From contig CAZHEV010000013.1 of assembly GCA_964531335.1 (NCBI GenBank), positions 22,732 through 86,731 on the forward strand: a DNA stretch of 64,000 bases, written 5' to 3'. Position 1 is the first letter of the stretch. Each line of letters starts with the position of its first letter. The notes under the pieces are model-generated. The model was not told the origin of the DNA. It saw only the letters and a list, made by a program, of their open reading frames with translations, and made no database searches. The stretch is from an uncultured bacterium. GTDB lineage: Bacteria; Eisenbacteria; RBG-16-71-46; CAZHEV01. A program made the position numbers and the translations under genes. This document shows, in pieces, positions 38,496 through 51,613 of the stretch.

Positions 38496-38936
38496 ATGCC
38501 ACTGAGAATACTGTTTCTGTGCACCGGGAATTCGTGCCGCAGCCAGATGGCCGAAGGTTGGACGCGACATCTCAAAGGCGACGTGGTGGAGCCGTACTCG
38601 GCCGGGATAGAACCTCGCGGAATCGATCCCCGCGCCGTGACGGTAATGGCGGAGGTCGGCGTGGATATTTCGAGGCAGAGCTCCAAGCACGTTGACGAAT
38701 TCAAAGGCACAGCCTTCGATTTCGTCGTGACCGTCTGCGACCATGCGAGCGAACACTGCCCGATCTTTCCTGGCGATACCCAAGTGGTGCACGTGGGTTT
38801 CGAGGATCCTCCCAAGCTGGCGGAAAACGCCGAGACCGAAGAGGAGGCGCTCGGCCACTACAGGCGCGTCAGAGACGAGATACGGGCATTTGTGCAGACG
38901 CTGCCGGCTGCCTTGGAAGGAGACGGGAGACAATGA
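38496..38936 (+). CDS. arsC: Arsenate reductase, thioredoxin-coupled LMW-PTPase type
   Basis: CX5R motif LFLCTGNSCRSQMAEG and downstream Cys pair VCDHASEHCP. Confidence 0.85.
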   Translation: MPLRILFLCTGNSCRSQMAEGWTRHLKGDVVEPYSAGIEPRGIDPRAVTVMAEVGVDISRQSSKHVDEFKGTAFDFVVTVCDHASEHCPIFPGDTQVVHVGFEDPPKLAENAETEEEALGHYRRVRDEIRAFVQTLPAALEGDGRQ

Positions 38937-39838
38937 AAGACACCGATATAGACCGCGGGAGTGACGGGAGCAGGGACGCCGATATAGACCGCGGGAGTGA
39001 CGGGAGTGAGCGGAAGGACGCGCGCGGCATCGTGCGCGAAGAATACGGCAAGATCGCCCGGCAGGGCGGCTCCTGCTGCGGGCCGTCACCTTGCTGTGGA
39101 GGCGCTTCCGCTGATTCGGTCGCCGCGAAAGTGGGCTACAGCCAAGAAGAGCTCGCCGGGCTGCCGCATGGAGCTAACATGGGGCTCTCCTGCGGGAACC
39201 CGGTCGCGATCGCGTCGCTGCGGCCGGGGGAAGTCGTGCTCGACCTGGGCGCGGGGGGCGGCTTCGACGTGTTCCTTGCAGCCCGCAAGGTGGGCCCTTC
39301 GGGACGCGCCATCGGCGTGGACATGACGCCGGACATGGTGGACAAGGCCCGCCGCAACGCGGAGTCCTTCAGAAGTGCGACGGGGCTCGACAACGTCGAG
39401 TTCCGTCTGGGCGAAATAGAGCACCTGCCCGTGGCGGACGCGTGCATAGACGTGGTAATCTCCAACTGCGTCATCAACCTCTCGCCGGACAAGCCTCAGG
39501 TGTGGGCGGAGATCGCGCGCGTCCTCAAGCCCGGTGGACGGGTATCCGTCTCCGACCTGGCGCTCCTGCGGCCGCTGCCGGACGCGGTGCGTGAGTCGGC
39601 GCAGGCCTTGGTCGGCTGCATGGCGGGGGCCGTGCCGGTGGATGAGACGCGCGAGATGACGCGGGAGGCCGGACTTACAGAGGCCGTCTTTGAAACCAAT
39701 TCCGACTACGTGGATCAGATGGCCGAGTGGTCCGACGCAACCTACCGCGAGATCGCCGCGGGGCTGCCGCCGGGGGCCCGGCCGAGCGACTTCGTGACCA
39801 GCATGAACGTCACGGCGTCCAAGCCCGTTACGGAATAG
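38933..39838 (+). CDS. arsM: Arsenite S-adenosylmethionine methyltransferase
   Basis: ATG overlaps arsC stop (ATGA); SAM-MTase motif [16 protein letters not shown], conserved Cys ([19 protein letters not shown]). Confidence 0.85.
38943..39006. repeat. 36-bp tandem direct repeat x2 at the 5-prime end of arsM (28/28 identical core ccgatatagaccgcgggagtgacgggag)
   Basis: Direct reading; encodes [11 protein letters not shown] twice. Confidence 0.9.
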
Positions 39839-39848
39839 GAGTGCGACG

Positions 39849-41039
39849 ATGGCGACTGAAGCGTGCATCAAGAAGGAGGCCAAGGGCCTCAGCGCGTTTG
39901 AGAGATACCTGACGGCCTGGGTGGCGCTCTGCATCGTGGCGGGGATCGCGCTCGGCAAGGTAGCGCCGGGCGTGGCTACTTTTCTGGACGGGTTGGCGAT
40001 CTACGTCGACGAGGCCCCGGTCGTCTCCATTCCCATCGCCGTCTGCCTGTTCTTCATGATGTACCCCATCATGGTGAAGATCGACTTCGCGGAGGTCCTA
40101 AAGGCCGGCAAGAACGCGAAGCCCGTGGGCCTTACGCTCTTCGTAAACTGGGCGATCAAGCCCTTCACCATGTACGCCATCTCGGTCTTGTTCCTCGGCG
40201 TGCTGTTCCGGGGGCTGATAGGTGCGGACGCCGTGGATCTGGTAAAAATGCCGCTCGGCCTCGACCTGCCCGTGGGGGCGGAGCACGGGGTGGGCAAGGT
40301 CGTGATCGCAGACGGGGTCAGGATGCTCGAGGTGCCGCTGTGGCGCAGCTACCTCGCCGGCTGCATCCTGCTCGGCATCGCGCCCTGCACGGCGATGGTG
40401 CTCGTCTGGGGGTTCCTGGCCAAGGGGAACGACGGCCATACCCTCGTCATGGTGGCGATCAACTCGCTGACAATGCTGTTTCTCTACGGCCCGCTTGGAG
40501 GTTTTCTGCTCGGCGTCGGAAGGCTGCCCGTGCCGTGGCAGGCGCTCCTTCTTTCCATCGGCGTCTATGTCGCGCTGCCGCTCGTGGCCGGATATGCGTC
40601 CAGGAGACTCATCGTTCGCGCCAGGGGAGAGGAGTGGTTCAAGGAGAGATTCCTGCACGTGATGACGCCGGTCACCATCACGGCGCTCCTTGTGACCCTG
40701 GTCTTGCTCTTCTCCTTCAAGGGCGAGACGATCATGTCCAACCCTTTGACGATCCTGTGGATCGCCATCCCGCTTTTCATCCAGACCAACCTGATATTCT
40801 GGATCACCTACGGACTGGCCAGGGGGCTGCGTCTTGAGTACCGTGACGCCGCGCCTTCGGCGATGATCGGAGCCTCGAATCACTTCGAGGTCGCCATCGC
40901 GACGGCGACCATGCTCTTCGGGCTTTCCTCGGGGGCGGCGCTTGCAACCGTGGTCGGGGTGCTCATCGAGGTGCCCGTGATGCTGATGCTGGTCCGGATC
41001 TGCCTTCGCACCAGCGGATGGTTCCGTGCGCCCTCGTGA
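39849..41039 (+). CDS. acr3: Arsenite efflux permease, ACR3 family
   Basis: RBS TAGGAG; polytopic membrane protein; N-terminal [23 protein letters not shown] typical of Acr3. Confidence 0.85.
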
Positions 41040-41555
41040 CCCGTACCCGGGCTAATCGCGGCAGCGCGCCCTGGTGGCCGGAAAGACCGCCGAAGAAGCC
41101 CGAGAGTGATCCGCCGAGAAAGAGATATCTGCGGTCGAATTTGAGATCCCGCACTCGGGGCAGCAGCTCGAACAGTGAGAACGCAAGCATGAGTGCTCCC
41201 ATGACCAGCTTGATAGGGGTGATGACGGCCGTTCGATCCCCCAGCTCATACCTTGCGATTTCTCCGCGATTTCTCCGAAATGGGCCACCCATCCCAGTGC
41301 GGCGGCGCCGGCGAAGGCCGCCGCGACGGCGGGGATGCCGAACCTGGTGACCAGGGACAGGTTCGCGTGCTTTCCCACCACGGCGACTTTGAAGGCGTTG
41401 TTCGCTCCGTGAACCACCGCCGTGGCCCCAACGGCGACTTCGACCGGGAAGAACAGAGCGAATACCGGCAGGAGAAGTGTCCCCAGACCGAACCCGGAGT
41501 ACAGAGTCAGTGCCGAGGCGAAAAACGCGACGGATGCGACCAGTGCCGGCTCCAT
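40963..41555 (-). pseudogene. TauE/SafE (TSUP) family sulfite-exporter-like permease, frameshifted and apparently 3-prime truncated
   Basis: N-terminal half lies in the frame of track ORF 41052-41732 (MEPALVASVAFFASALTLYSGFGLGTLLLP...), C-terminal continuation in the frame of ORF 40963-41292 (RYELGDRTAVITPIKLVMGALMLAF...). The frames are separated by an 11-bp tandem duplication; the 3-prime end overlaps acr3 convergently. Confidence 0.6.
41255..41276. repeat. Exact 11-bp tandem duplication (gcgatttctcc x2) causing the TauE frameshift
   Basis: Direct reading of 41255-41265 and 41266-41276; removing one copy restores ...WVAHFGEIARYELGDRTAVITP... in a single frame. Confidence 0.9.
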
Positions 41556-41572: not shown

Positions 41573-42988
41573 TCAAGCTGCGGGCCAAATCCAGACTACG
41601 AGTACTGAAACGAACAAGATGGAGGAAACCAGGAGCCCGGAACGCGCCGCTGCGAGCGAGTCTGCGGGGATGTCGCGCATCCATCGCGATGCCCGCCACG
41701 CGAGCAGGATCGCCACTGCGAGCATCGCCCATCCGACGGTCGAGAGGCCGAGCAGTCCCGCAGGCATGGCGATTCCGTGGTCTCCGATTTGTCGGAAGGT
41801 TTCCATCCCATTCGGATCGCTAACCGCCAGAGGCAGGTAGCCGCCCCATGAAGCGACTTTGGCTGCGGCCTTTGAGACGTGCGCCGCGGCTACGACCGGA
41901 GCCGCTCCCGTCGCGGCGGCGAGCAGAAGCGTCCGAAGACCGCCGCGGTGGCCCATGAGGTAGCCCAGCAGGGAGACGGCGGCCCACACCAGAATGGGGA
42001 AAATGACAAGGAACCACAAAGCCTCGAACCATCCGAATTCAACCATCGGCAGGAGGGAGTTCAGCCGCTTCGGCACGGCGTGAAATCCGGCGTCGAGCCA
42101 CTTTACTTCTCCTATGACTTCATGCGCCACGAAGCCGAGAGCGACCAGCACGAAAGCGGCCTCGAACGGCAGGAGCAAAGACCTGCGCCGGATCGGCGAG
42201 TCGGATCGCGCAAGACCGAACCCCATGTTGTCGTAGGGACAGACCTTGGCGCATTGGAGGCAGAGCACGCAGCCGTCGGACGGTTTGCGCCGAAAGGGTG
42301 CCAATAGCGACGGGCAGCTTCGCTTGTCAAAGCGGTCGCGGTTCGCGGGACGAATACAATCCTTGGTGCCGCAGGAGTCGCAGAGGGATGGATCGCGGGC
42401 CTCAAGCTGGATCGGGGTGTAGCGGCCGTACACGGAGAGCAGCGCTCCGGCAGGGCAGAAAGCGCGGCAGAATGAGCGGTGATCGCTGAAGACCAGCCCC
42501 GCGACAAACGCCGTAGCTGCCAACAGGAGAAGAAAGATCGACGTGTAGTGCGGCATTCTATGGATGGAGAATCCCGCGACCAGAAGTTGGAGCAGGAGGT
42601 AGATGGTTACGATAATCCAGCCGGCCCGCAGGAACCTCCCCAGCCGTGGGCGCGGCCGTCCGGCTCTGCCGGCGATGGCGTTGCCGATCCGGTTGACCAT
42701 CTCCAATGGACAGACCGTGCACCAAGCCCGTCCAAAACCCAACGCAATCGCGATCATCAGCGGCCACCAAAGCCCCCAGACGACCAGAGTGGTGAGGTTC
42801 GTCTTTCGCAGGGTCAGCAGCTCATCGTCCTTCATGCCGGTACCGATGCCCAGTCCGTTTATTGCCAACAAGGCGACCGCGACCAGGGCAAGCGCTTGCA
42901 TCGTCACCGGAAACGCAGCGGACATGAGAAAGCGGCGCACAGGCTTCCATCTTAAGACGTCGAATCTCACTTGGGATTTTTCGGTCAT
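41573..42988 (-). CDS. Polytopic membrane 4Fe-4S binding protein (NapH/MauN-like polyferredoxin)
   Basis: ATG 42988; multiple TM segments plus Cys clusters (CTVCP, CRAFCPAG, CDSCGTKDC, CVLCLQCAKVCP). Confidence 0.65.
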   Translation of the reverse strand: MTEKSQVRFDVLRWKPVRRFLMSAAFPVTMQALALVAVALLAINGLGIGTGMKDDELLTLRKTNLTTLVVWGLWWPLMIAIALGFGRAWCTVCPLEMVNRIGNAIAGRAGRPRPRLGRFLRAGWIIVTIYLLLQLLVAGFSIHRMPHYTSIFLLLLAATAFVAGLVFSDHRSFCRAFCPAGALLSVYGRYTPIQLEARDPSLCDSCGTKDCIRPANRDRFDKRSCPSLLAPFRRKPSDGCVLCLQCAKVCPYDNMGFGLARSDSPIRRRSLLLPFEAAFVLVALGFVAHEVIGEVKWLDAGFHAVPKRLNSLLPMVEFGWFEALWFLVIFPILVWAAVSLLGYLMGHRGGLRTLLLAAATGAAPVVAAAHVSKAAAKVASWGGYLPLAVSDPNGMETFRQIGDHGIAMPAGLLGLSTVGWAMLAVAILLAWRASRWMRDIPADSLAAARSGLLVSSILFVSVLVVWIWPAA

Positions 42989-43241
42989 TGTCCGTACCGT
43001 CCGCCGTCTTCTCCGAGCACTATCTCGCGGTGGAGCTCCTCGATCTGTGCGCGCAGGTGGGCGAGCACTTTCCGGCCGTTCTCGGTCGGCGAATATTTCC
43101 TCCTGGCTCGCAGGCCGCTTCCGGGGTCGGTCTTGCACTTGATCCAGCCGCGATCTTCCTGACCACCAAGCTCGTCGAATCGTTCCCCGGCCTGGACTTC
43201 TCCCTTGCCGGGCCGGGCATGTCCCAGGGCTGCCGGCTTTC

Positions 43242-44387
43242 TCATGGGCGCCCTGGGCCGGCGAGGCTCTTCCACGCCTTGCTCAACAGTACCACCGCTT
43301 GGCGGACATCGTCGCTCGTCGTCGCCCGACCGAGTGAGAGGCGAACGGAGCCGAGCGCGTCCTCGGCGGTGAGGCCCATGGCAAGTAGCACCGCCGAGGG
43401 AGCCTCCCCGCCCTCGTGGCACGCCGAGCCCGTCGACGCGGCGAGCCCCGGGGCGCCGCCGAGCACGGCGCTGCCGCGCACGCCGGGAAACGTCACGTTC
43501 AGAGTGTTGGGCAGCCCCAGCGCCTCGTGGCCGTTGAGCGCGATACCCGGGATTTTTGCCCGCAATAGCAACAATAGCTCGTCCCGCAGAGCCCGGGCCC
43601 GCGCCGATTCCTTCGCCAGAGACCTGATCGCAATCTCGCATGCCGCGCCGAGCCCGACTATCGATGCCACGTTCTCGGTGCCCGGCCGCAGGCCTCGCTC
43701 GTGACCGGCGCCGCGCAGCACCGGCTCCACGGTCACCCCATCGCGGACGTACAGCGCCCCGACGCCCTTCGGGGCGTAGAGCTTGTGTCCTGCGATGGAC
43801 AGGAGGTCCACGCCGAGTTCATCCACTTGTACGTCGATCTTGCCCACTGACTGGGCCGCGTCGGTGTGCAGCAGGGATCCGGCGTCGTGAACCGCTCGCC
43901 TCACCTCGGCGATCGGCTGGAGCGTGCCGGTCTCGTTGTTGGCGTGCATCAGCGTAACGAGAACGGTCTCCTCGGTCAGTGCCCGGCGCACATCCTCCTC
44001 TCGGACACGTCCGGTCTCGTCGACCCCCAGCCAGGTGACTGCCAAGCCGCTTCGTTCGAGCAGCCTGCAGGGGTTAGCAGTCGCCGGATGCTCGACGACC
44101 GAAGTGACGATGTGCTTCCTGTCCGGGCGGGAGGCCGCCGCACCCCGGATCGCGAGGTTGTTCGCCTCGGTGCCGCCCGACGTGAACACGATCTCGGCGG
44201 GCGCGGCGCCGATGAGCGAGGCGACGCGCGCCCGCGCGGCCTCGACCGCTTCGTGCGCCCGTCGTCCGTACGCGTGACCGCTCGACGGGTTGCCGAAGTG
44301 CTCCCGCAGGTACGGCAGCATCTCGTCCACGACCTCGGGCAGGAGCGGAGTGGACGCGTTGTGATCGAGGTAGATGGGATCGCTCAT
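43242..44387 (-). CDS. Cysteine desulfurase (NifS/IscS family, PLP-dependent)
   Basis: ATG 44387 with RBS AGAGGGGGA; MSDPIYLDHNASTPLLPEVV...TSGGTEANN..., PLP-Lys context SIAGHKLYAPKG, active-site Cys region STGSACH. Confidence 0.85.
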   Translation of the reverse strand: MSDPIYLDHNASTPLLPEVVDEMLPYLREHFGNPSSGHAYGRRAHEAVEAARARVASLIGAAPAEIVFTSGGTEANNLAIRGAAASRPDRKHIVTSVVEHPATANPCRLLERSGLAVTWLGVDETGRVREEDVRRALTEETVLVTLMHANNETGTLQPIAEVRRAVHDAGSLLHTDAAQSVGKIDVQVDELGVDLLSIAGHKLYAPKGVGALYVRDGVTVEPVLRGAGHERGLRPGTENVASIVGLGAACEIAIRSLAKESARARALRDELLLLLRAKIPGIALNGHEALGLPNTLNVTFPGVRGSAVLGGAPGLAASTGSACHEGGEAPSAVLLAMGLTAEDALGSVRLSLGRATTSDDVRQAVVLLSKAWKSLAGPGRP

Positions 44388-44553
44388 GACTCCCCCTCTT
44401 GCGATGTTCTCTTGTATGCAGCGGCCGCGACGAACGCGGCGCCGGGCGTGATGGTGGCAGCCGGCATGTGATCGAGCGGCGCGGAACGGCGCCGCCCGTC
44501 GCGAGCCCGCGTGTCGCGCCGGCACGCGTACGTCCTCGGGAGCATCGCCTGCA

Positions 44554-45765
44554 TCACAGCCCGGTCGCGAGCTGCACGGTCACCACGAGGTGATCCTGCA
44601 GCGCCGCCGCGCTAGGGTCTCCTTCCCGCTGCCCTACGTAGGTGCCTTCCACACTGAGCTTGTTGGCGTGGCCCGAGAAGAAGTAGTTCAAGCCGAGGCC
44701 GCCGACATGAGTGTTGTGGTCGCTGTCATCGACGTGAATCAACTCGTAACGCGCGAAGGGCTGAAGCCGACCGGGTCCGACTTCGCCCGATATAAGGTAG
44801 CCGCCCCTGAAAGACACGACGTCGGCCTCGGTCCCGGGGGAGAGGGCCGTGAAGTTGACGGTGCCGGGAGCGCCGCGGATGTTAATGTAGGACCCAACCA
44901 GCGTCAATCCTCCTCCGCCGCCGATGGGCCGGTCGTAGTGGACGTCGGCGGTCCATGAGAAATAGTCGTCTTCGCCTGTATCGAAGGTGAGCTGCTGGGA
45001 GTCAAAGCCGCCGCCGATTGATAGGACCTGCCGTTTGCCGAGGTAGGTGCCCTGGTTGAACCAGCCGGTCTCGGGCTCCAAAAGAGACAGGCTCAAGCGC
45101 CCCGCGATGCGAGGGGCGCCGCCGGGATTGCGGGTCTCGTCGTCCACGCCGTCGGCGACCATGAGGCGATACTGCGCGAGCCCGCCCTCGATGTTTCCCC
45201 ACAGTGTGGCGCCGTCATCGCGGCCGACCGTGCTCGGGTAGAAGATCCCCCCGCGATATCCGCCCTGAATCCAGTCCAGATCGGTGGTGAGGAGCGCCTT
45301 GGTCGAGGTCGTTCCGTAGTTTCGAGTGAAGGGGATGTACATCCGCCCGACCTGGAGCTGCATCGCGCCCTCAAGGAGTTTGACGTAGACCCATCCGTCT
45401 CGAAGTGCGAGCCCGGTGCCAAGGCCCACGCCGGGTTTGTCCAGGCCCCTCTGTCCGAAACGGTCCCCGGCGATGTGGACGAAGAAACCGTACCAGGGGG
45501 TCGCCGTGCCGTTCACGGACAGGTACACTCGCCGCAGCAAGAAGTCGTGGAGATCCTGATCCGCGTCGCCGTCCGATGCGTCCTGTACGTACTGGTACCA
45601 TCCCTGCGCCCACAGACCGATGCTCAATGAGCGGTCTCCGTCGCGATATATCTCCTCTGCAAAAGCGGCGCCGGAGGCACCGAGCGCCAGTAGAACGGCC
45701 AGACCTGCCGCGACGGGCACGGTCCTCGACTTGCGGCTGCGAAATGTTTGTCTTGGTCTGCCCAT
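44554..45765 (-). CDS. Putative outer-membrane beta-barrel / porin-like protein
   Basis: ATG 45765 with RBS GGAGGA; signal peptide ...AAGLAVLLALGASGAAFA; Gly/Tyr/Thr-rich beta-like composition. Family not resolved. Confidence 0.45.
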   Translation of the reverse strand: MGRPRQTFRSRKSRTVPVAAGLAVLLALGASGAAFAEEIYRDGDRSLSIGLWAQGWYQYVQDASDGDADQDLHDFLLRRVYLSVNGTATPWYGFFVHIAGDRFGQRGLDKPGVGLGTGLALRDGWVYVKLLEGAMQLQVGRMYIPFTRNYGTTSTKALLTTDLDWIQGGYRGGIFYPSTVGRDDGATLWGNIEGGLAQYRLMVADGVDDETRNPGGAPRIAGRLSLSLLEPETGWFNQGTYLGKRQVLSIGGGFDSQQLTFDTGEDDYFSWTADVHYDRPIGGGGGLTLVGSYINIRGAPGTVNFTALSPGTEADVVSFRGGYLISGEVGPGRLQPFARYELIHVDDSDHNTHVGGLGLNYFFSGHANKLSVEGTYVGQREGDPSAAALQDHLVVTVQLATGL

Positions 45766-45778
45766 GCTCGATCCTCCG

Positions 45779-46132
45779 TCAAAACACCAGGATTCGGTCG
45801 GCCCACAGGGTCCACTCGGTAAGCTGGTCGAGGGATCCGCGTTTCGTTCCCTCGGCGAGATCGTCGAGCGCGAGGCCGCGGGCGTCCATACAATTGGCGC
45901 AGACACCGATCTCGCCCTTCTTGTTGCTGACCGCGCGCAGCATGCGCTCGAGGTTGTAATACCCGTTGGGGGTCTGCTGCCCGGCCCTGGCGCAACTTGC
46001 CGCGTCGCCCATGAGGAAGACGCGGACCTCTTCTCCCTCGCGCTTGACGAGGGAGCCCGCCAGGCGCAGGCCGTTGTAGCTCCGTTCAGTGCCGTAGGGC
46101 GCGTCGTTCAGAATAAAGAGGGTTTTGCTCAT
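45779..46132 (-). CDS. DsrE/DsrF-like sulfur-relay family protein
   Basis: 117 aa; MSKTLFILNDAPYGTERSYNGLRLAGSL...FLMGDAASCA pattern. Confidence 0.7.
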   Translation of the reverse strand: MSKTLFILNDAPYGTERSYNGLRLAGSLVKREGEEVRVFLMGDAASCARAGQQTPNGYYNLERMLRAVSNKKGEIGVCANCMDARGLALDDLAEGTKRGSLDQLTEWTLWADRILVF

Positions 46133-46812
46133 GATTGGTCCTCGATAGCATTGGTTTCGACGGCCAGACCGCGGGCGCGCCAGTCGGTCACTCCCTCCTC
46201 CATTCGGATGGCGTAAAAGCCTTTTTCGCGAAGCGCCTCGACGGCCTGCACGGATAGCACGCAGTAGGGCCCCCGGCAGTAGGCGACGATGTCTTTATCC
46301 TTGGGAAGCTCGGCCAATCTGGATTCAAGCTCCGTCAGGGGAATCGATATCGCTCCCGGGATGTGGCCTGCGCTGTACTCCTCGACGGGCCGCACGTCGA
46401 TTACCGTGACGCTCTTGCTTCGAACGCGCTCTATCAGTTGCGCGCGATCGACGGCCTCGAGTCCTTCCCGACCGTCGAGGAAGCGACGAGTGATCTGTTC
46501 GATGTCGGCGAGCCGCTTCTCTGCAAGGAGGCGCATGCTTCGGAAAAAGTCACATACCGCCAAGTCGGCGATCTTATAGGTGACGTAGAGTCCCTCCTTG
46601 CGGCCCTCGATGAGGCTTGCTCCACGCAGGACGTGCAGATGGCGGGAGGCGTTGGCGACCGTCAGGCCGGATTCTTTGGCCAGCGCCTCGACGGTCCTCG
46701 GGCCCTGGCAGATAAGATCCAGCAGCTCCAGCCGTTTGGGGCTGGAGACGGCCCTTCCGATCCGCGAAAACTGCTCGTAGATATCGTCTTTGAAGCGCCT
46801 GTTGGGGTTCAT
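46129..46812 (-). CDS. ArsR-family HTH regulator fused to a rhodanese domain (BigR-like persulfide-sensor candidate)
   Basis: N-terminal wHTH (LELLDLICQGPRTVEALAKESGLTVANASRHLHVL), C-terminal rhodanese with active-site loop AYCRGPYC. Confidence 0.8.
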   Translation of the reverse strand: MNPNRRFKDDIYEQFSRIGRAVSSPKRLELLDLICQGPRTVEALAKESGLTVANASRHLHVLRGASLIEGRKEGLYVTYKIADLAVCDFFRSMRLLAEKRLADIEQITRRFLDGREGLEAVDRAQLIERVRSKSVTVIDVRPVEEYSAGHIPGAISIPLTELESRLAELPKDKDIVAYCRGPYCVLSVQAVEALREKGFYAIRMEEGVTDWRARGLAVETNAIEDQS

Positions 46813-46852
46813 GGTAGCCCTTTCTTCTTGTGCTACTCAAGCGAATAAGCAA

Positions 46853-46881
46853 GTAATAGAATAATCTGGCGTCCGTGTCAA
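46853..46881 (-). promoter_or_regulatory. Minus-strand sigma70-type promoter TTGACA-17-TATTAC upstream of the ArsR-rhodanese operon
   Basis: Direct reading of the reverse complement: TTGACA (46881-46876), 17-nt spacer, TATTAC (46858-46853); about 40 nt upstream of ATG 46812. Confidence 0.35.
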
Positions 46882-46963: not shown

Positions 46964-49900
46964 TTACCTGATAGCCCGGGAGCCGGCATCCCTTTCCTTA
47001 CCGAACATCCTGTAGATGGCGGGCATTAGAATCAGGGTGAGTGCGTTCGCTGAGAGCACTCCCCCGATCACGACTGTGGCGAGCGGGCGCTGCACCTCAG
47101 CCCCAACGCCGGTGTTCAACGCCATCGGAAGGAACCCCAGGCTGGCGACCAGCGTCGTCATGAGAACCGGTCTCAGGCGCAAAAGGGCGCTTTCCTCGAT
47201 CGCCCGCTCGATGGGAAGACCGTCGGCGATCATTCGCTGCATGGTGGAGACGAGTACCAAGCCGGCGAGCATGGCGACCCCGGAGACCGCGACGAATCCC
47301 ACGCCGGCCGACACTGTAAAGGGCATCCCGCGGATCCACAGCGACAGGAGCCCTCCAAGGGTTGCGAAGGGGGCGCCCGTGAAGATGAGCAGCGCGTCCC
47401 GCAGGGATCCCGTACTCGTGTAGAGGAGGAAGAGGATCAGGAGGAGCGCCAGCGGTACGACGATCATCAGGCGATGGCGCGCCCTCTCCATGTGTTCGAA
47501 CTGTCCGGCGAATGCCATGTAGTATCCCGCGGGGAGTTCGACCTCACGATCGAGCCGCTTCCGCGCCTCACCGACAAAGCCACCCACGTCGCGTCCCCTT
47601 ACGTTGCACTGCACGACGATCCGCCTCCTTTGCCACTCGCGCGTGATTGTCGACGGCCCTTCGACCTGCCGGATGCGCGCGAGCTGTTCGAGGGGAATGC
47701 GCCCGCCGGCCGCCGTTGGGATGAGGATCCGCCGCACCGCGTCAGGATCGCTTCGGTATCGCTCCGGCAGTCGCACCGCGAGATCGAAGCGTCGCTGACC
47801 TTCGCGTATCTCCCCGACGGTCACGCCGCCTATAGCCTCCACGACTTCGAGAACATGCTGTGCCGCGACGCCGTGGCGCCCTACGGCATCTTGATCGACT
47901 TGGATTTCGATTACGGGCTGGCCCGTGATCTGTTCCACGTACACGTCGGCCGCCCCGCGAATGCCGCCGATGACGGCGCCCACCTCCGCGGCTTTTTCTC
48001 GAAGGATGTCGAGATCGTCGCCGAAGATCTTTATCCCCACGTCCGTGCGAATCCCGGCGATCATTTCATTCACCCGCATCTCGATCGGTTGCGTGAAGAT
48101 GAGGCGCATCCCGGGCAAACCGGAGAGCTCCAGGCTCATGAGCTCGACCAGTGCCTCTTGGCTGCCGGCTCTCGTCCACTCGCCCCTCGGGGCCAGCGTG
48201 ATGAAGACATCGGAGAGCTCTATCCCCATGGGGTCCGTCGCCACCTCCGCCGTGCCCGTGCGGACCCACACGTCGCGAACCTCGTCGGGGTGCTTCTCGA
48301 GGATTATCTTCTCGATCCGGCCGCCGTAGCGAACGGACTCCTCCAGGGAGATCCCGGACAGCCGGACCGTGTTTATCACAATCCCACCCTCGGAGAGGCG
48401 CGGAAGGAATTCCGAGCCTATTCGCGTGGCGAGGACCGCCCCACAAGCGAGCAGCAGAAGCGCTCCGGCCAGGACGCGCCGACGGCGCCTGATCGCATAG
48501 CGAACCACCGGGCCATAGATGCTTTTTGTGGCGCGAGCGATTCTGTTCTCCTTGGCCTCCGTACGATTCCGCAGTACGAGGCTCGCCAAAACAGGCATGA
48601 GGGTGAGCGAGAGAACCAGCGAGCCGGCGAGCGCGAAAAGCAGAGTGAGGGCCATAGGTCTGAAGAGCCTTCCCTCCACGCCTTCGAGTGTCAGGACCGG
48701 CAGGAAGACGATGGCAATGATCAGCTCTCCGTACATCGTGGGTTTGCGGACTTCAGTGGCGGCCTCGCGGACGGTGTCGATCACCGAACGGCGGCCTTCA
48801 TGATGAGCCAGGCGCCGGACGCAGTTCTCGACCGAGATTACCGAGCTGTCCACGATGAGGCCGAAGTCTATGGCACCGAGACTCATAAGGCTCCCCGCGA
48901 TGCCGAACTTGACCATGCCGTTAACCGCAAAAAGCATGGACAGTGGAATCGCCGCCGCGACGATGAGCCCGGCGCGTAGGTTGCCCAGGAGAACAAAGAG
49001 CACGGCGATGACCAGGAGCGCTCCCACTAGCAAGTTCTCCTCTACGGTATGGAGGACTTTGTCGACGAGGTCCGTTCGCTCGTACAGGGGTTTCACCTCG
49101 ACTCCCTCCGGGAGCGTCTCCCGGATCTCCGCCATTCGCTCGCGGAGGCGTGAAGTCACCTCGTGACTGTTCTCCCCCATCAGCATGAAGGCGAGCCCCA
49201 GCACCACCTCCCCACGCCCGTTGGCTGTGACCGCGCCTCGGCGAATCTCATGCCCCTCGCGCACCTCGGCAACGTCTCGGACGCGGATCGGCACTCCGTC
49301 CTCGGCCGTGATGAAGATGTTCCCGATCTCCCGGAGATCCGTCGTCAGACCGATGCCCTGGACCAGGTTCATCTCGCCCGCCTGCGCGATGTATCCGCCT
49401 CCGACAACCAGGTTGTTCTTCTCAAGCGCTCGAAGCACGTCGTCCAGCGTCATGTCGTATTTCACGAGGCGCACGGGATCGGCAAGTACGTGGAACTGTT
49501 TTCGCTTTCCTCCCCACGTATTGACCTCGGCCACCCCCGGAACCGATTGCAGCCGCGGCTTGATGACCCACTCGTGCAGCGTCGTGAGCTCCATGAGGGT
49601 GTGGCTCTCGCTTGTTACCACGTAGTGATAGATCTCCCCAAGCCCCGTGGCTACGGGGCCCATCTCCGGGTTAGGGGTCCCGTCGGGAATCTCCACCGTC
49701 TGCAGGCGCTCCATGATGAGCTGCCGCGCGAAGTAGATGTCGACGTCCTCTTCAAAGGTGACCGTCACCTGGGACAGACCGAATTTCGAGATCGACCGCA
49801 CTCCCTCCAGTCCCGGTAGGCCGGCGATCGCCCGCTCGACGGGGAAGGTGATCTGTTGCTCGATTTCCATGGGCGATAGTGCCGGCGCCGTAGTGTTGAT

Positions 49901-50044
49901 CTGCACCTGCACCGGAGTGGTGTCCGGGAAAGCATCGATCGGCAATCGGAACAACGTCCTGACGCTTACCGCAGCCAAGACGACGGTCAAAACTATGACC
50001 AGAAATCGGTGGTTCAGAGACCACGAAATAATCGCGCTTATCAC
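46964..50044 (-). CDS. RND efflux permease, heavy-metal-efflux (CzcA/CusA) family
   Basis: 1026 aa; GTG start with RBS GAGGAG; 12-TM RND architecture; N-terminus MISAIISWSLNHRFLVIVLTVVLAAVSV...AFPD typical of HME-RND. Confidence 0.9.
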   Translation of the reverse strand: MISAIISWSLNHRFLVIVLTVVLAAVSVRTLFRLPIDAFPDTTPVQVQINTTAPALSPMEIEQQITFPVERAIAGLPGLEGVRSISKFGLSQVTVTFEEDVDIYFARQLIMERLQTVEIPDGTPNPEMGPVATGLGEIYHYVVTSESHTLMELTTLHEWVIKPRLQSVPGVAEVNTWGGKRKQFHVLADPVRLVKYDMTLDDVLRALEKNNLVVGGGYIAQAGEMNLVQGIGLTTDLREIGNIFITAEDGVPIRVRDVAEVREGHEIRRGAVTANGRGEVVLGLAFMLMGENSHEVTSRLRERMAEIRETLPEGVEVKPLYERTDLVDKVLHTVEENLLVGALLVIAVLFVLLGNLRAGLIVAAAIPLSMLFAVNGMVKFGIAGSLMSLGAIDFGLIVDSSVISVENCVRRLAHHEGRRSVIDTVREAATEVRKPTMYGELIIAIVFLPVLTLEGVEGRLFRPMALTLLFALAGSLVLSLTLMPVLASLVLRNRTEAKENRIARATKSIYGPVVRYAIRRRRRVLAGALLLLACGAVLATRIGSEFLPRLSEGGIVINTVRLSGISLEESVRYGGRIEKIILEKHPDEVRDVWVRTGTAEVATDPMGIELSDVFITLAPRGEWTRAGSQEALVELMSLELSGLPGMRLIFTQPIEMRVNEMIAGIRTDVGIKIFGDDLDILREKAAEVGAVIGGIRGAADVYVEQITGQPVIEIQVDQDAVGRHGVAAQHVLEVVEAIGGVTVGEIREGQRRFDLAVRLPERYRSDPDAVRRILIPTAAGGRIPLEQLARIRQVEGPSTITREWQRRRIVVQCNVRGRDVGGFVGEARKRLDREVELPAGYYMAFAGQFEHMERARHRLMIVVPLALLLILFLLYTSTGSLRDALLIFTGAPFATLGGLLSLWIRGMPFTVSAGVGFVAVSGVAMLAGLVLVSTMQRMIADGLPIERAIEESALLRLRPVLMTTLVASLGFLPMALNTGVGAEVQRPLATVVIGGVLSANALTLILMPAIYRMFGKERDAGSRAIR

Positions 50045-50056
50045 GGGATCTCCTCT

Positions 50057-51613
50057 CTACGCACCGGGATCCACTTCGCAGCAGCCCGCGCCGATACTCC
50101 CCTTGAGGATTTCCGTCTTTAGAAGAAAGCTTCCCTGTGTAACGACCTCTTCGCCGGTCTTGAGCCCGCTGAGAACCTCATAAAACCTCCCCGCCGCCGA
50201 GCCGAGGTGAACCTTGCGAGGTTCGTACAGCATCTCGGATTTCTTCACGAAAACCACGTTGCAGCAGCCCTCCCACTGCACCGCCGTTTCAGGCACCACA
50301 AGCGCCTCGTGCCGGTCGTGTACCGAGACAATCGCTTTCGCGAACATGTTCGCGCGAAGGGCTCCGTCGCTGTTGTCCAGCAGGACCCGGGCCCTAAGCG
50401 TTCGAGTGTGTGGGTCCATCTGAGTGCTCACCCATGTAATCTCCCCGGCGAATGCCTCTCCGGGGAGCTCGTCCACGCGCAGGACGACCGCTTGCCTCTC
50501 ACGGACCTCGCGAACCTCGGACTCGTACACGTCGAGGAGCGCCCACATTCCGGAGACGTCCGCAATCGAATAAAGCGTTTTCGACGGCTCCACAACCTCG
50601 CCCACGACGGCGTCTCGTCCCACCACGACGCCTGAGAACGACGCGGTGAGGGTGTAACGGGCGCTCGTGTCTCCGGTCCGCGCGACTTCGTCGACCTGTC
50701 TCTCCGACAGACCAAGACTGAGCAGCTCTTGCCGGGTCTTTGAAAGCGCAATGCGGCTCTCGGCGAGTCTCCCCTCTGCTTCAAGGACGTCCCTCTCGGT
50801 CGATACACCCCGACCGAGGAGATTGCTCTCCCTTGAGTGATTTTTCTCCCATTGATAAACGGCGCTTGCCGACTGAAGGTAGGCGGCCTTCGCCGCGCCG
50901 AGAACCGCGGAGGTCACCGTCACCAGCGCATCACCTCGTTCCACTCGGTCGCCCAGGTCCCTGTGAATATCCGCGATAACGCCCGGGACCTGAGACGAGA
51001 GCCGGGCGTAGCGGTTGCCGTCATAGGCCACCACCGCGTTACACTCAACTGTCTTTGTAATCGGCCGGCGTTCGACCCTGGCGAACTCCAGCCCCGCGTC
51101 CCGGGCGATGTCCGGAGTTTCGAAACGCACGACGAGGTCTTGCGTTGAGCAGGAGACCGAAGGTGGCTTTCGGCTCCGTGGGAGATCTTCGTACTCGGAC
51201 GTTGAATCGAACGGCGCGGCGGCCGGCGCTGACGCGTCCGAGGACTCTGTTGGACCGCTCTCTTCCTTCTTCTCAGGAGCAAGCTCCGGGTTGCAGATGT
51301 AACACTGAGATTCCGGGCGATCGTGCCCTCCGCACCAGTCGCCGGTCGCCTTGAACGCGGGAATGAGCGCCGGATTGCACTGATAGCAGAGGGCCTCGGG
51401 AACGCCATGCTCACTGCAGTGTCCCAGCTTCTCGATCAAGCTCGGGTCGCAGAAGGGACATTGGGCCTCGGCGATCTGGTGCTCATCACAGAACGCGCCG
51501 GCCTCACCTCTCGCCTTTCCGCCGCCGTCCTCATCGCCTCGGTCACAGCCGGTGCCGGACCATCCGATTACTATCACCAATAGCGCAGTCATGATACGTG
51601 CACGTGTCATCAT
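50057..51613 (-). CDS. RND efflux periplasmic adaptor (CzcB/CusB-like) with N-terminal Cys/His-rich metal-binding repeats
   Basis: Start overlaps upstream stop (ATGATGA) with RBS AAGGAGGG; three N-terminal modules (C..H...CPFCDP / HCSEH...CYQCNP / WCGGH...CYICNP); membrane-fusion-protein core downstream. Confidence 0.8.
   Translation of the reverse strand: MMTRARIMTALLVIVIGWSGTGCDRGDEDGGGKARGEAGAFCDEHQIAEAQCPFCDPSLIEKLGHCSEHGVPEALCYQCNPALIPAFKATGDWCGGHDRPESQCYICNPELAPEKKEESGPTESSDASAPAAAPFDSTSEYEDLPRSRKPPSVSCSTQDLVVRFETPDIARDAGLEFARVERRPITKTVECNAVVAYDGNRYARLSSQVPGVIADIHRDLGDRVERGDALVTVTSAVLGAAKAAYLQSASAVYQWEKNHSRESNLLGRGVSTERDVLEAEGRLAESRIALSKTRQELLSLGLSERQVDEVARTGDTSARYTLTASFSGVVVGRDAVVGEVVEPSKTLYSIADVSGMWALLDVYESEVREVRERQAVVLRVDELPGEAFAGEITWVSTQMDPHTRTLRARVLLDNSDGALRANMFAKAIVSVHDRHEALVVPETAVQWEGCCNVVFVKKSEMLYEPRKVHLGSAAGRFYEVLSGLKTGEEVVTQGSFLLKTEILKGSIGAGCCEVDPGA

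What the first reader, a model, noticed from the sequence alone, without database searches (positions are those of the whole stretch)
41573..46812. Sulfur-trafficking operon led by an ArsR-rhodanese fusion regulator (BigR-like), ending in a decayed TauE gene
Minus-strand order: ArsR-HTH fused to rhodanese (active-site Cys loop), DsrE-like protein, porin-like outer-membrane protein, NifS/IscS cysteine desulfurase, polytopic 4Fe-4S membrane protein, then the TauE/SafE pseudogene. The regulator architecture and TauE partner recall persulfide-responsive BigR-type operons, but the DsrE + desulfurase + membrane polyferredoxin + porin content is not the standard set. This may be an uncharacterised sulfane-sulfur mobilisation or export route, whose terminal exporter is now broken.
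Basis: partly seen in the sequence, partly recalled or inferred. Interest (0 to 1): 0.55.

Follow-up and report, generated by a model that had tools for sequence, protein, structure and literature searches.

The report
Two fused sulfur-handling gene cassettes
The gene row is real, but it is two separately conserved and uncharacterised cassettes joined by deletion inside a metal-resistance island: an intact sulfur- (or selenium-) sensing regulator with a porin, a cysteine desulfurase and a DsrE-like protein, followed by an iron-sulfur membrane protein whose own regulator and exporter genes are broken.

Summary
A seventh was missed: a 5'-truncated PadR regulator gene (43245-42985) between the desulfurase and the polyferredoxin.

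Comparison with about 125 related loci shows two cassettes.
- **Cassette A** (46881-43242) holds the ArsR-rhodanese regulator, a CxxC DsrE-like protein, an ExtI-type porin and a NifS/IscS-type desulfurase. The set recurs in many metagenomes in permuted order. Its promoter (TTGACA) and operator are conserved across phyla.
- **Cassette B** normally reads PadR, a 470-aa NapH-like polyferredoxin, then often TauE. Here PadR lacks its first ~40 codons. TauE has an 11-bp duplication frameshift and has lost ~96 C-terminal codons at the junction with arsM-ACR3. The polyferredoxin itself is intact.

The regulator has the alpha2/alpha5 cysteine pair of SqrR/BigR-type persulfide sensors plus an invariant rhodanese cysteine loop. 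A persulfide-responsive reading is therefore reasonable.

The 'one operon ending in its exporter' reading is only partly right. TauE belongs to cassette B, which has its own regulator and mostly occurs without cassette A. Sulfur versus selenium as the substrate is unresolved. The finding is moderately interesting: both cassettes appear uncharacterised.

The parts
46853..46881 (-). Promoter of cassette A: -35 TTGACA (46881-46876), 17-nt spacer, -10 TATTAC (46858-46853)
   Evidence: Read from the sequence. CTTGACA is invariant and the -10 region is conserved in the upstream regions of 7 ArsR-rhodanese genes from different phyla (alignment A4). The generic scan missed it because the -10 ends in C.
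46833..46858 (-). Operator-like element overlapping the -10 and start region (TATTACTTGCTTATTCGCTTGAGTAG). It is a degenerate copy of a palindrome conserved in homologous loci.
   Evidence: The aligned position holds a perfect TATTCAAG-N6-CTTGAATA palindrome in L088 and an extended imperfect palindrome in L086. The window copy has a weak left arm.
46129..46812 (-). ArsR/SmtB winged-helix regulator fused to a rhodanese domain (227 aa). C35 sits in alpha2, C87 in alpha5, and the catalytic loop is C179-RGPY-C184.
45779..46132 (-). DsrE-like protein (117 aa) with a CxxC motif. It reads CANC here and CG[TS]C in 11 orthologues.
   Evidence: Pfam DsrE 84 bits. Alignment A3 and the motif scan. One orthologue has TGA at the first Cys position.
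44554..45765 (-). Outer-membrane anion porin of the OprO/P-ExtI type (403 aa) with an N-terminal signal peptide ending AFA|EE
   Evidence: Relatives at 50-55% identity are named ExtI by NCBI.
44388..44553 (-). 166-nt GC-rich spacer between porin and desulfurase. It is unique to this locus; the same junction is about 15-50 nt elsewhere.
   Evidence: The 56-aa ORF called here in L001 has no homologues or domains.
43242..44387 (-). Class I (NifS/IscS-type) PLP cysteine desulfurase, 381 aa, with the active-site loop STGSAC and the GHK lysine
   Evidence: Sequence.
42985..43245 (-). Remnant of a PadR-family regulator gene. Only residues ~41-104 of ~110 are kept (homology 43200-43009), and the conserved SPGTLYPLL helix has been replaced by QAGERFDEL.
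   Evidence: Full-length 105-115 aa PadR genes sit at this position in 34 other loci. tblastn finds no N-terminal half anywhere in the window. Pfam PadR E = 0.087 here, against 1.9e-18 for the L067 orthologue.
41573..42988 (-). Intact NapH-like membrane polyferredoxin (471 aa, about 9 helices). Motifs: C90xxC93P, C174xxxC178P and two ferredoxin-type Cys clusters (C203/206/211/225 and C240/243/246/250). A C-terminal five-helix extension carries invariant His and Lys residues.
41062..41555 (-). TauE/SafE pseudogene: frameshifted and truncated at the 3' end
   Evidence: Pfam TauE 30.5 bits on the N-terminal piece. Removing one repeat copy restores 58% identity to the L067 TauE over residues 1-162 of 258.
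41255..41277 (.). Perfect 11-bp tandem duplication (GGAGAAATCGC twice on the minus strand) that frameshifts TauE
38933..41039 (+). Convergent arsM (38933-39838) and ACR3 arsenite efflux gene (39849-41039). This block ends 23 nt from the point where TauE homology stops.
   Evidence: NCBIfam arsenite methyltransferase 317 bits against a cutoff of 263, and acr3 381 against 283. Junction.
46964..52971 (-). CzcCBA-type heavy-metal RND efflux genes directly upstream on the same strand. They form the island context and are not part of either cassette.
   Evidence: TIGR00914 CusA/CzcA 1193 bits. Gene calls in L001. The same CzcBA-PadR-polyferredoxin-TauE order occurs in L067.

Best explanation
The stretch is a junction of two independently conserved cassettes inside a metal and metalloid resistance island (czcCBA upstream, arsM-ACR3 downstream).

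**Cassette A (46881-43242)** is intact.
- It starts with an autoregulated ArsR-rhodanese repressor.
- Inferred mechanism: the rhodanese Cys179 picks up sulfane sulfur from thiosulfate, polysulfide or persulfide (or the selenium analogue). It then passes it to, or acts together with, the alpha2/alpha5 pair Cys35/Cys87. This releases the repressor from an operator that overlaps the -10 box.
- The genes it controls are a redox-active CxxC DsrE-like protein, an ExtI-type anion porin and a NifS/IscS-type cysteine desulfurase. The porin would let a charged chalcogen species cross the outer membrane. The desulfurase would make protein-bound persulfide.
- Taken together this looks like a chalcogen (most likely sulfane-sulfur) sensing and trafficking unit.

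**Cassette B (43245-41062)** is what remains of a PadR, polyferredoxin and TauE cassette.
- The deletion that joined it to cassette A removed the PadR promoter and the first ~40 PadR codons.
- TauE was later frameshifted, and its 3' end was lost next to the ars genes.
- The polyferredoxin is undamaged. It has lost its own promoter and repressor, so it is probably read through from cassette A.
- Its role is inferred only. It looks like a NapH/CcoG-like membrane redox protein with cytoplasmic Fe-S clusters that works alongside an anion exporter (TauE or ChrA) in metal or oxyanion stress.

**Shown:** the anatomy, the conservation of each cassette, the lesions and the conserved promoter. **Inferred:** the inducer, the substrate, co-transcription and all the chemistry.
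For: **Cassette A is a conserved unit**
- The porin is followed directly by the desulfurase in L089, L106, L112, L114, L115, L116 and L125.
- An ArsR-rhodanese gene lies upstream in L106, L112 and L115, upstream of the porin without a desulfurase hit in L092 and L093, downstream in L089 and divergent in L091.
- DsrE is present in L089, L112, L114, L115, L116 and L126.
- ArsR-rhodanese plus DsrE also head operons with sulfide- or persulfide-type partners: Pyr_redox_2 flavoproteins, AhpC, a rhodanese with a DsbD/thioredoxin fusion, and an MBL-fold hydrolase with an MFS transporter.

**Regulator**
- C179 and C184 are invariant across 14 sequences.
- C35 and C87 are invariant in the subgroup at 68% identity or more. 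They sit at the end of alpha2 and the start of alpha5 in the model, which has pLDDT above 85 over the HTH domain.
- The rhodanese domain is closest to those of persulfide dioxygenase-rhodanese fusions and of CoA-persulfide reductase.
- The promoter and operator are conserved across phyla.

**DsrE-like protein**
- The CxxC motif is conserved, and one orthologue has TGA at the first Cys position.

**Cassette B is separate**
- PadR lies directly upstream in 34 of 80 loci. TauE lies within the flanks in 12 of 80.
- PadR plus polyferredoxin occur with no cassette A gene in L083 and L084.

**Lesions**
-.

**Polyferredoxin is intact**
- It deviates at 1 of 137 near-invariant columns, among the lowest of 26 family members.

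**Gene spacing supports read-through**
- There are 4-nt overlaps at three junctions and gaps of 13 and 17 nt at two others. No terminator-like site was found on the minus strand at any junction.
Against: - No expression data exist, so co-transcription and read-through into the polyferredoxin are inferred.
- A 166-nt spacer before the desulfurase could hold an internal promoter or a terminator that the simple scan missed.
- The window's operator copy is degenerate and its DsrE motif is CANC rather than CGxC. Cassette A may therefore be regulated or active differently here.
- Cys35 and Cys87 are absent from more distant fusion orthologues (L082, L013, L020, L024, L036). The SqrR-type mechanism cannot be general for the family.
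- A porin is an odd component for a purely cytoplasmic sulfur relay.
- Nothing tested here distinguishes sulfur from selenium or tellurium.
- The two cassettes are neighbours more often than chance would suggest (at least 6 of 80 loci, plus L023). A functional link is therefore not excluded.
Confidence: 0.55

Rival explanations
1. One reading: all the genes form one functional pathway: a sulfane-sulfur mobilisation and export route. The desulfurase and DsrE would load sulfur, the polyferredoxin would process it at the membrane, and TauE would export the product. The exporter is now broken.
For: - The genes are co-directional and tightly packed.
- The two gene sets are neighbours in L013, L017, L020, L024, L036 and L039. 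L039 reads polyferredoxin, TauE, ArsR-rhodanese, DsrE, desulfurase on one strand.
- L023 reads desulfurase, intact PadR, polyferredoxin, then a decayed TauE.
- From general knowledge, TauE-type permeases occur in known sulfide-detoxification operons such as bigR and cst.
Against: - Gene order and orientation differ between loci.
- The polyferredoxin has its own regulator, either PadR or, in about 8 loci, a two-component pair.
- 74 of 80 polyferredoxin loci show no ArsR-rhodanese gene within 10 kb. None of the 38 other porin loci shows a polyferredoxin.
- The polyferredoxin has stayed under constraint although TauE is dead. It therefore does not depend on TauE.
Confidence: 0.15
2. Cassette A handles selenium or tellurium rather than sulfur. 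The porin would admit selenite or tellurite. The rhodanese domain would sense a perselenide. The NifS-like enzyme would act as a selenocysteine lyase or protect against tellurite. The CxxC DsrE protein would be a selenium redox carrier.
For: - The porin's only characterised relative, ExtI, is implicated in selenite and tellurite uptake and reduction (PMC5877670). Relatives at 50-55% identity are annotated ExtI.
- The DsrE-like domain of the selenium-linked protein YedF carries the same CGXC motif (PMC5322559).
- One DsrE orthologue appears to be a selenoprotein.
- Related operons resemble the Tso selenoprotein operon. The NCBIfam TsoR and TsoB models give weak hits, and L087 and L091 carry a rhodanese plus a DsbD/thioredoxin fusion.
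- Methyltransferase genes occur in L086, L092 and L093.
Against: - No selD, selA or yedE gene was seen next to any cassette A locus examined.
- Plasmid relatives pair with MBL-fold hydrolases, which by analogy with bigR-blh could be persulfide dioxygenases. Others pair with sulfide- or persulfide-type flavoproteins.
- The ExtI gene cluster is now tied to polysulfide respiration as well (PMC13510729).
- A selenocysteine in an orthologue marks a redox-active site. It does not mark a selenium substrate.
Confidence: 0.2
3. Both cassettes are accessories of metal resistance. The desulfurase and DsrE would rebuild Fe-S clusters or supply sulfide to precipitate Cd, Zn or Cu. The polyferredoxin would be a CcoG-like metal or oxyanion reductase regulated by a metal-sensing PadR.
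For: - The genes sit between czcCBA and arsM-ACR3.
- Heavy-metal RND genes lie near the polyferredoxin in L036, L058, L060 and L067, and near the porin in L095, L096, L103 and L112.
- L067 reads porin, ArsR, hypothetical gene, CzcB, CzcA, PadR, polyferredoxin, TauE.
- The PadR partner is closest to the Rv3488 family (98 bits against a cutoff of 140). From memory, Rv3488 was reported to bind cadmium (Kumari et al. 2018).
- ChrA-type transporters lie near the polyferredoxin in 7 loci.
- Plasmid relatives of the regulator sit beside copper-resistance genes.
- Distant family members carry cytochrome c or YtkA-like domains.
Against: - Resistance islands collect unrelated cargo, so position in an island is weak evidence.
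- The regulator shows none of the metal-binding ligand sets looked for.
- Most polyferredoxin loci have no metal genes nearby.
Confidence: 0.15
4. The whole row is decaying cargo with no current function.
For: - Two of the seven genes are pseudogenes.
- The window's operator copy is degenerate.
- The DsrE motif is atypical.
- There is an unusual 166-nt spacer.
Against: - Five genes are full length, with all family-invariant residues present.
- The polyferredoxin deviates at only 1 of 137 near-invariant positions.
Confidence: 0.05

Closest known systems
SqrR / BigR / YgaV class of sulfane-sulfur-sensing ArsR repressors (with the E. coli ygaV-ygaP pair as the unfused analogue)
   Same: - Same ArsR winged-helix fold.
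- A Cys in alpha2 and a Cys in alpha5.
- Association with rhodaneses, persulfide-type enzymes and, in plasmid relatives, MBL-fold hydrolases.
- YgaV and the rhodanese YgaP match the N- and C-terminal halves of the protein respectively.
   Different: - The rhodanese is fused to the regulator here.
- The protein scores far below the BigR model (24 bits against 155).
- The Cys pair is not conserved throughout the fusion family, whereas the rhodanese CRGPYC loop is.
- The controlled genes are a porin, a desulfurase and DsrE, not a persulfide dioxygenase and TauE.
Mb0332 / Rv0324 of the Mycobacterium tuberculosis complex (PDB 3gw2 and 2kko, fragment 1-100)
   Same: It is the closest solved relative of the HTH domain (36% identity, TM-score 0.88 on the target). 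From memory, the full-length protein also carries a C-terminal rhodanese domain.
   Different: It is known only as a network-level regulator of bedaquiline tolerance (PMC9480834). No inducer or mechanism has been described, and its gene neighbourhood is different.
ExtI porin of the Geobacter sulfurreducens extHIJKL cluster
   Same: Same OprO/P-like porin family. It is genetically linked to a rhodanese-domain protein. It is implicated in passage of selenite or tellurite, and its cluster is implicated in polysulfide reduction.
   Different: The window porin scores below the ExtI equivalog cutoff (115 against 150). There are no multihaem cytochromes, no ExtH lipoprotein and no bc-type complex here. 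Its partners are cytoplasmic.
NapH / MauN / CcoG-type membrane polyferredoxins
   Same: Cys-x(2-3)-Cys-Pro motifs at the ends of membrane helices, plus two ferredoxin-type 4Cys motifs. Pfam Fer4_5 and NCBIfam napH give partial hits.
   Different: - It scores 45 bits against a cutoff of 213.
- It has about 9 helices, with a conserved C-terminal five-helix extension (AAATGAAPxxAxAHxxKxxAK).
- It has no NapG, NapC or cbb3 partner.
- It has a dedicated PadR regulator.
cst / yrk-type sulfide-detoxification operons of Firmicutes (CstR, rhodanese, TusA, DsrE-like, persulfide dioxygenase, TauE)
   Same: They combine a thiol-based repressor, rhodanese and DsrE-like sulfur carriers and a TauE permease (from general knowledge).
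   Different: The repressor family differs (CsoR-like). They have no porin, no desulfurase and no polyferredoxin. Here TauE belongs to the other cassette.

Membership tests
SqrR/BigR-type sulfane-sulfur-sensing ArsR repressors | ArsR/SmtB winged-helix fold | tested here: met
   Pfam HTH_5 36 bits. NCBIfam HTH_metalloreg 60.4 against a cutoff of 55. Foldseek TM-scores of 0.8-0.9 to ArsR-family structures.
SqrR/BigR-type sulfane-sulfur-sensing ArsR repressors | A pair of cysteines, one in alpha2 and one in alpha5 (PMC11672702) | tested here: met
   C35 is the last residue of helix 25-35 and C87 lies in helix 84-113 of the AF2 model. Both are invariant in 16 sequences at 68% identity or more. Both are replaced in 5 more distant fusion orthologues.
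SqrR/BigR-type sulfane-sulfur-sensing ArsR repressors | Scores as a BigR equivalog (NCBIfam NF040642) | tested here: not met
   24.3 bits against a cutoff of 155. BigR and SqrR structures are absent from the PDB sequence hits at E <= 0.001.
SqrR/BigR-type sulfane-sulfur-sensing ArsR repressors | Polysulfide bridge formation and derepression by sulfane sulfur | not testable with these tools
   Needs purified protein, mass spectrometry and DNA-binding assays.
Rhodanese sulfurtransferase domain | Catalytic Cys at the end of the central beta-strand, followed by the active-site loop and a helix | tested here: met
   C179 ends strand 174-179 and helix 181-196 follows. AYCRGPYC is invariant. Pfam Rhodanese 63 bits.
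ExtI selenite/tellurite-operon porin | Reaches the NCBIfam porin_ExtI equivalog cutoff | tested here: not met
   115.1 bits against a cutoff of 150, although the match covers nearly the full length (17-381 of 404).
ExtI selenite/tellurite-operon porin | Sits in an ext-type cluster with ExtH and multihaem cytochromes | tested here: not met
   No cytochrome genes in the row. The partners are the regulator, DsrE and the desulfurase.
Class I (NifS/IscS) cysteine desulfurase | Aminotransferase class V fold with a PLP lysine and an SSGSAC-type catalytic loop | tested here: met
   Aminotran_5 272 bits. The IscS subfamily model PRK02948 scores 312 against 304. The motifs GHK and STGSAC are present. 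The protein falls below the NifS (459 against 531), IscS and DndA equivalog cutoffs.
DsrE/TusD sulfur-relay proteins | DsrE fold, and equivalence to TusD or DsrE | tested here: inconclusive
   Pfam DsrE 84 bits is met. TusD equivalog 28 bits against 89 is not met. The motif is CxxC (CGXC type as in YedF, PMC5322559), not the single-Cys TusD site.
NapH/MauN family ferredoxin-type membrane proteins | Reaches the TIGR02163 cutoff, and has four helices with two CX3CP motifs and two 4Fe-4S motifs | tested here: not met
   45 bits against a cutoff of 213. The Cys motifs are present, but the protein has about 9 helices and a unique C-terminal half.
TauE/SafE anion exporters | Complete gene of about 250 aa encoding an 8-helix permease | tested here: not met
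   The gene is frameshifted by an 11-bp duplication and truncated after residue ~162. Pfam scores 30.5 against a cutoff of 32.6 on the first piece.
PadR-family regulators (Rv3488-like) | Complete winged helix including the N-terminal helices and the SPGTLYPxL recognition helix | tested here: not met
   Only residues ~41-104 are retained and the recognition helix is mutated. Pfam E = 0.087.

The most novel reading that the evidence does not exclude
Two new functional units are present, neither with a characterised member.
1. An ArsR repressor with a built-in rhodanese 'antenna' that charges its own alpha2/alpha5 sensing cysteines. It controls a dedicated outer-membrane entry and cytoplasmic relay route for a chalcogen species, which could be selenium rather than sulfur.
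2. A horizontally spread PadR-controlled polyferredoxin family. It is 60-70% identical across at least eight phyla and has no solved fold relative. It could be a new kind of transmembrane reductase for metal or chalcogen oxyanions that works with TauE or ChrA exporters.
Probability: 0.2. Interest if true: 0.7.

Novelty: new variant of a known kind. Interest (0 to 1): 0.45.

Why it matters
- ArsR-rhodanese fusions are very common. In the homologue search, 7,992 of 8,000 scored candidates matched, and 198 plasmids of cultured bacteria carry one. From memory, M. tuberculosis Rv0324 belongs to the same class. My literature searches nevertheless found no described inducer or mechanism.
- This locus and its relatives give such a regulator a defined promoter and operator, a candidate sensing chemistry, and a conserved regulon that can be tested.
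- The PadR-polyferredoxin pair is a compact, widely transferred cassette of unknown function, sometimes found in metal-resistance contexts. Identifying its substrate could add a new resistance or respiratory activity.
- The locus also shows how a regulator gene can be lost at a cassette junction while its target gene stays under selection.

Tried and rejected
- **RNA elements.** Rfam and tRNA scans of the whole window found nothing. There is no riboswitch in the 166-nt spacer or the leader.
- **Repeats at the junctions.** The spacer and both junction sequences are not repeated elsewhere in the window or in related loci. No insertion-sequence scar was found.
- **The 56-aa ORF at 44384-44554.** It is called in the Logan assembly but has no domain and no homologue in any related locus. 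I treated it as spurious.
- **Plasmid search.** No plasmid in PLSDB encodes a polyferredoxin relative.
- **Literature.** No paper in the library combines PadR with polyferredoxin, ArsR with a C-terminal rhodanese, or Rv0324 with rhodanese.
- **Source organism.** Cluster look-ups carried no names.
- **Generic promoter scan.** It missed the real candidate because its -10 box ends in C. Its only hit lies inside the porin gene and was disregarded.
- **Arsenate-reductase (Cdc25/Acr2-type) reading of the rhodanese domain.** Rejected. The loop is CRGPYCV, with no Arg at position +6.

Full report

Yes. The minus strand between 46812 and about 41060 carries, in order:

| Gene | Coordinates | Evidence |
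|---|---|---|
| ArsR-HTH/rhodanese fusion | 46812-46129 | Pfam HTH_5 and Rhodanese |
| DsrE-fold protein | 46132-45779 | Pfam DsrE |
| OprO/P-type porin | 45765-44554 | Pfam Porin_O_P, NCBIfam porin_ExtI |
| Class V aminotransferase (cysteine desulfurase) | 44387-43242 | Pfam Aminotran_5 |
| Polytopic protein with ferredoxin motifs | 42988-41573 | Pfam Fer4/Fer4_5 |
| Broken TauE gene | 41555 to ~41062 | Pfam TauE |

The gene starts agree with an independent gene call on an identical 14-kb metagenome contig (L001).

The junctions are tight. There are 4-nt overlaps between the regulator and DsrE, between the desulfurase and the next ORF, and between that ORF and the polyferredoxin. There is a 13-nt gap before the porin and a 17-nt gap before TauE. 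The exception is a 166-nt GC-rich spacer between the porin and the desulfurase.

Three corrections are needed:
- The finding's coordinates stop at 41573, so they exclude the TauE remnant it describes.
- The polyferredoxin starts at 42988 (MTEKSQ...), not at the upstream GTG.
- One gene was missed (section 2).

**2. The missed gene and the two lesions.**

The 86-codon ORF at 43245-42985 is the tail of a PadR-family regulator gene. In 34 other loci a complete PadR gene of 105-115 codons occupies exactly this position. It usually overlaps the polyferredoxin start. Its consensus reads ...EREILLSFWKVHILHHA...GQWVIRELRRHGYEVSPGTLYPLLARMEERGWL...

The window keeps only residues ~41-104 (homology 43200-43009). 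The conserved SPGTLYPLL recognition helix has become QAGERFDEL. No N-terminal half is found anywhere in the window, in any frame.

TauE carries two lesions.
- The first is a perfect 11-bp tandem duplication at 41255-41277 (GGAGAAATCGC twice on the minus strand). Removing one copy in silico restores a continuous frame that is 58% identical to an intact TauE (L067) over residues 1-162 of 258.
- The second is a truncation. Homology stops at about 41062, 23 nt from the stop codon of the convergent ACR3 gene. About 96 C-terminal codons are therefore missing.

**3. The polyferredoxin belongs to its own cassette.**

The protein has several hundred close relatives of about 470 aa. All come from metagenomes or metagenome-assembled genomes and none is characterised. 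They are 56-72% identical across Planctomycetota, Acidobacteriota, Myxococcota, Ignavibacteria, Gemmatimonadota, Chloroflexota, Riflebacteria and others. That pattern points to horizontal spread under strong constraint.

In a library of 1.84 billion cluster representatives, the family profile finds 153 at E <= 1e-30. It is a small, distinct family.

I examined 80 genome loci:

| Neighbour of the polyferredoxin | Loci (of 80) |
|---|---|
| PadR, directly upstream on the same strand | 34 (35 in total) |
| TauE within the flanks | 12 (9 directly downstream) |
| Histidine kinase and NtrC-type regulator (upstream in most; only one of these loci also has PadR) | 9 and 8 |
| ChrA-type transporter | 7 |
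| Heavy-metal RND genes | 4 |

Two loci show PadR plus polyferredoxin standing alone among unrelated genes (L083, L084).

**4. The regulator, DsrE, porin and desulfurase form the other cassette.**

I scanned metagenomes with the porin and looked up three of its closest relatives. The same genes recur in permuted order:
- L089: porin, desulfurase, ArsR-rhodanese, DsrE.
- L112 and L115: ArsR-rhodanese, porin, desulfurase, DsrE.
- L114 and L116: porin, desulfurase, DsrE.
- L106: ArsR-rhodanese, porin, desulfurase.
- L125: porin, desulfurase.

None of these loci contains a polyferredoxin gene. Many are short contigs, so the counts are lower bounds.

The ArsR-rhodanese family itself is very large and well conserved (70-84% identity among the top hits). 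It heads a range of small operons whose other genes all deal with thiol, persulfide or selenol chemistry:
- DsrE plus a Pyr_redox_2 flavoprotein (L082, L085).
- DsrE plus an AhpC-type peroxiredoxin (L088).
- A nucleoside phosphorylase, a methyltransferase and DsrE (L086).
- A rhodanese plus a DsbD/thioredoxin fusion (L087, L091).
- On plasmids of Deinococcus and Rhodococcus, an MBL-fold hydrolase plus an MFS transporter.

**5. How the two cassettes relate.**

They are separable but not strangers.
- Six polyferredoxin loci also carry a full-length ArsR-rhodanese gene with DsrE within 10 kb. Positions and orientations vary (L013, L017, L020, L024, L036, L039).
- L023 reads desulfurase, intact PadR, polyferredoxin and then another decayed TauE.
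- L067 reads porin, ArsR, hypothetical gene, CzcB, CzcA, PadR, polyferredoxin, TauE. This resembles the window with cassette A removed.

The simplest history for the window is a deletion or recombination that brought the 3' end of cassette A up against the middle of the PadR gene. That event removed the promoter and repressor of cassette B.

The polyferredoxin departs from only 1 of 137 near-invariant alignment columns, among the lowest of 26 family members. It is still under selection. It is presumably now expressed by read-through, which is an inference.

**6. The regulator.**

An AlphaFold model (pLDDT above 85 over the HTH domain) gives the following layout:

| Element | Residues |
|---|---|
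| alpha1 | 3-21 |
| alpha2 | 25-35 |
| alpha3 | 41-48 |
| alpha4 | 52-64 |
| Wing | 68-81 |
| alpha5 (long, runs into the rhodanese domain) | 84-113 |

C35 ends alpha2 and C87 lies early in alpha5. A Cys pair in alpha2 and alpha5 is the stated hallmark of all known ArsR-family sulfane-sulfur sensors (PMC11672702).

Both cysteines are invariant in the subgroup at 68% identity or more. Both are replaced in five deeper-branching fusion proteins. The rhodanese loop AYC179RGPYC184 is invariant in all 14 sequences compared.

The nearest solved relatives are as follows:
- For the rhodanese domain: the rhodanese domains of persulfide dioxygenase-rhodanese fusions and of CoA-persulfide reductase.
- For the HTH domain: Mb0332, the M. 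bovis counterpart of Rv0324 (36% identity).
- E. coli YgaV and YgaP match the two halves separately.

The protein is not a BigR equivalog (24 bits against 155).

**7. Promoter and operator.**

I aligned the upstream regions of seven ArsR-rhodanese genes from different phyla. CTTGACA is invariant and the -10 region is conserved. A palindrome overlaps the -10 and start region. It is perfect in L088 (TATTCAAG-N6-CTTGAATA) and imperfect in L086 and in the window. This is the layout expected for an autorepressor.

**8. The other proteins of cassette A.**

- **DsrE-like protein.** It has a CxxC motif, CG[TS]C in 11 orthologues and CANC here. In L013 the first Cys codon is TGA, followed by a hairpin. 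That suggests a selenocysteine form and marks this residue as a redox-active nucleophile. The hairpin's energy is not significant in this GC-rich sequence (z = -1.1). [quoted passage not shown]
- **Porin.** It has a typical signal peptide. It matches the ExtI model over nearly its whole length but scores below the cutoff (115 against 150). ExtI is implicated in selenite and tellurite uptake, and its gene cluster is implicated in polysulfide respiration (PMC5877670, PMC13510729).
- **Desulfurase.** It is a class I enzyme with the STGSAC loop. It passes only a subfamily-level model.

**9. The polyferredoxin.**

It has C90xxC93P and C174xxxC178P at the ends of membrane helices. It also has two ferredoxin-type clusters (C203/206/211/225P and C240/243/246/250P). 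In these respects it resembles NapH, MauN and CcoG, but the napH model scores only 45 bits against a cutoff of 213.

The model (pLDDT 80) shows about nine helices. The C-terminal five-helix half is unique and conserved, with invariant His143, His147, His303, His370, Lys373 and Lys377. The positive-inside rule places the Fe-S domain in the cytoplasm, which is an inference.

No solved structure resembles it. Distant members are fused to a cytochrome c domain, to a weak YtkA-like domain or to a PD40 beta-propeller. These fusions hint at electron exchange with the periplasm.

Its PadR partner is closest to the Rv3488 family (98 bits against 140).

**10. Most likely mechanism, and rivals.**

Best supported (confidence 0.55):
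- Cassette A is an autoregulated unit that senses and traffics sulfane sulfur or another chalcogen.
- Cassette B is a decayed neighbour. Its one surviving gene, a membrane redox protein of unknown substrate, has been captured by cassette A's transcription.

Rivals:
- Selenium or tellurium as the true substrate of cassette A (0.2). This is compatible with the architecture proposed above.
- Both cassettes as accessories of metal resistance (0.15).
- Non-functional cargo (0.05).

What is shown: the anatomy, the lesions, the conservation of each cassette, the conserved promoter and operator, and the placement of the cysteines. What is inferred: the inducer, the substrate, co-transcription and the chemistry.

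**11. Novelty and score.**

The general logic is known: a thiol-based ArsR repressor controlling sulfur-transfer proteins. The fused rhodanese, the regulon of porin, desulfurase and CxxC DsrE, and the PadR-polyferredoxin family all appear to be uncharacterised. My literature searches found nothing on them.

I rate it a new variant of a known kind, with interest 0.45. The main value of the finding is that it defines two testable cassettes and corrects the single-operon reading.

Noticed in passing
L013:2251-2595 (minus strand); TGA at about 2368-2370: The DsrE orthologue next to an ArsR-rhodanese gene has an in-frame TGA exactly at the first Cys of the CGxC motif (VLL-TGA-GSCMDARG), followed by a GC-rich hairpin. 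It is probably a selenocysteine-containing DsrE-like protein. The hairpin energy is not significant against shuffles (z = -1.1).
   Followed up: partly
window 45890-45901 (DsrE motif): The window's DsrE protein reads C-A-N-C where 11 orthologues read C-G-T/S-C and one has TGA in place of the first Cys. It is the only variant of this kind seen.
   Followed up: partly
L023:4386-4745: In a second, unrelated locus (desulfurase, PadR, polyferredoxin), the gene after the polyferredoxin starts like TauE (MIEYVTICTVALPASGL...) and then loses the frame. TauE therefore appears to have decayed independently there too.
   Followed up: no
window 53989-54327 (+) and 53586-53864 (-), with 46964-52971 (-): A plain ArsR-family regulator and a 92-aa protein of unknown family sit upstream of czcCBA. 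The same ArsR, hypothetical gene, CzcB, CzcA series, preceded by an ExtI-like porin in place of CzcC, occurs in L067.
   Followed up: partly
L089:12993-14461, L091:6363-8191, L129:3036-4886: A sterol-desaturase-family (FA_hydroxylase) gene and a VTT/DedA-domain gene (fused to a rhodanese in L091) repeatedly lie beside ArsR-rhodanese genes. This is seen in a Myxococcota metagenome-assembled genome, a metagenome contig and a Roseibium plasmid. It may be another conserved part of the regulon.
   Followed up: no
P0368, P0342, P0380, P0390 (distant polyferredoxin relatives): Some family members are fused to an N-terminal cytochrome c domain, to a weak YtkA-like domain or to a C-terminal PD40 beta-propeller.
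   Followed up: partly
window 38933-39030: The arsenite methyltransferase begins with a duplicated acidic peptide (D[10 protein letters not shown] twice). A 9-bp tandem repeat is reported at 38992-39009.
   Followed up: no
L082:8599-9321, L067:11019-12428, L129:5964-8386: Transposase genes lie within a few kb of the PadR-polyferredoxin or ArsR-rhodanese genes in several loci. In L067 one interrupts a RACo-type gene. This fits the idea that the cassettes are mobile.
   Followed up: no
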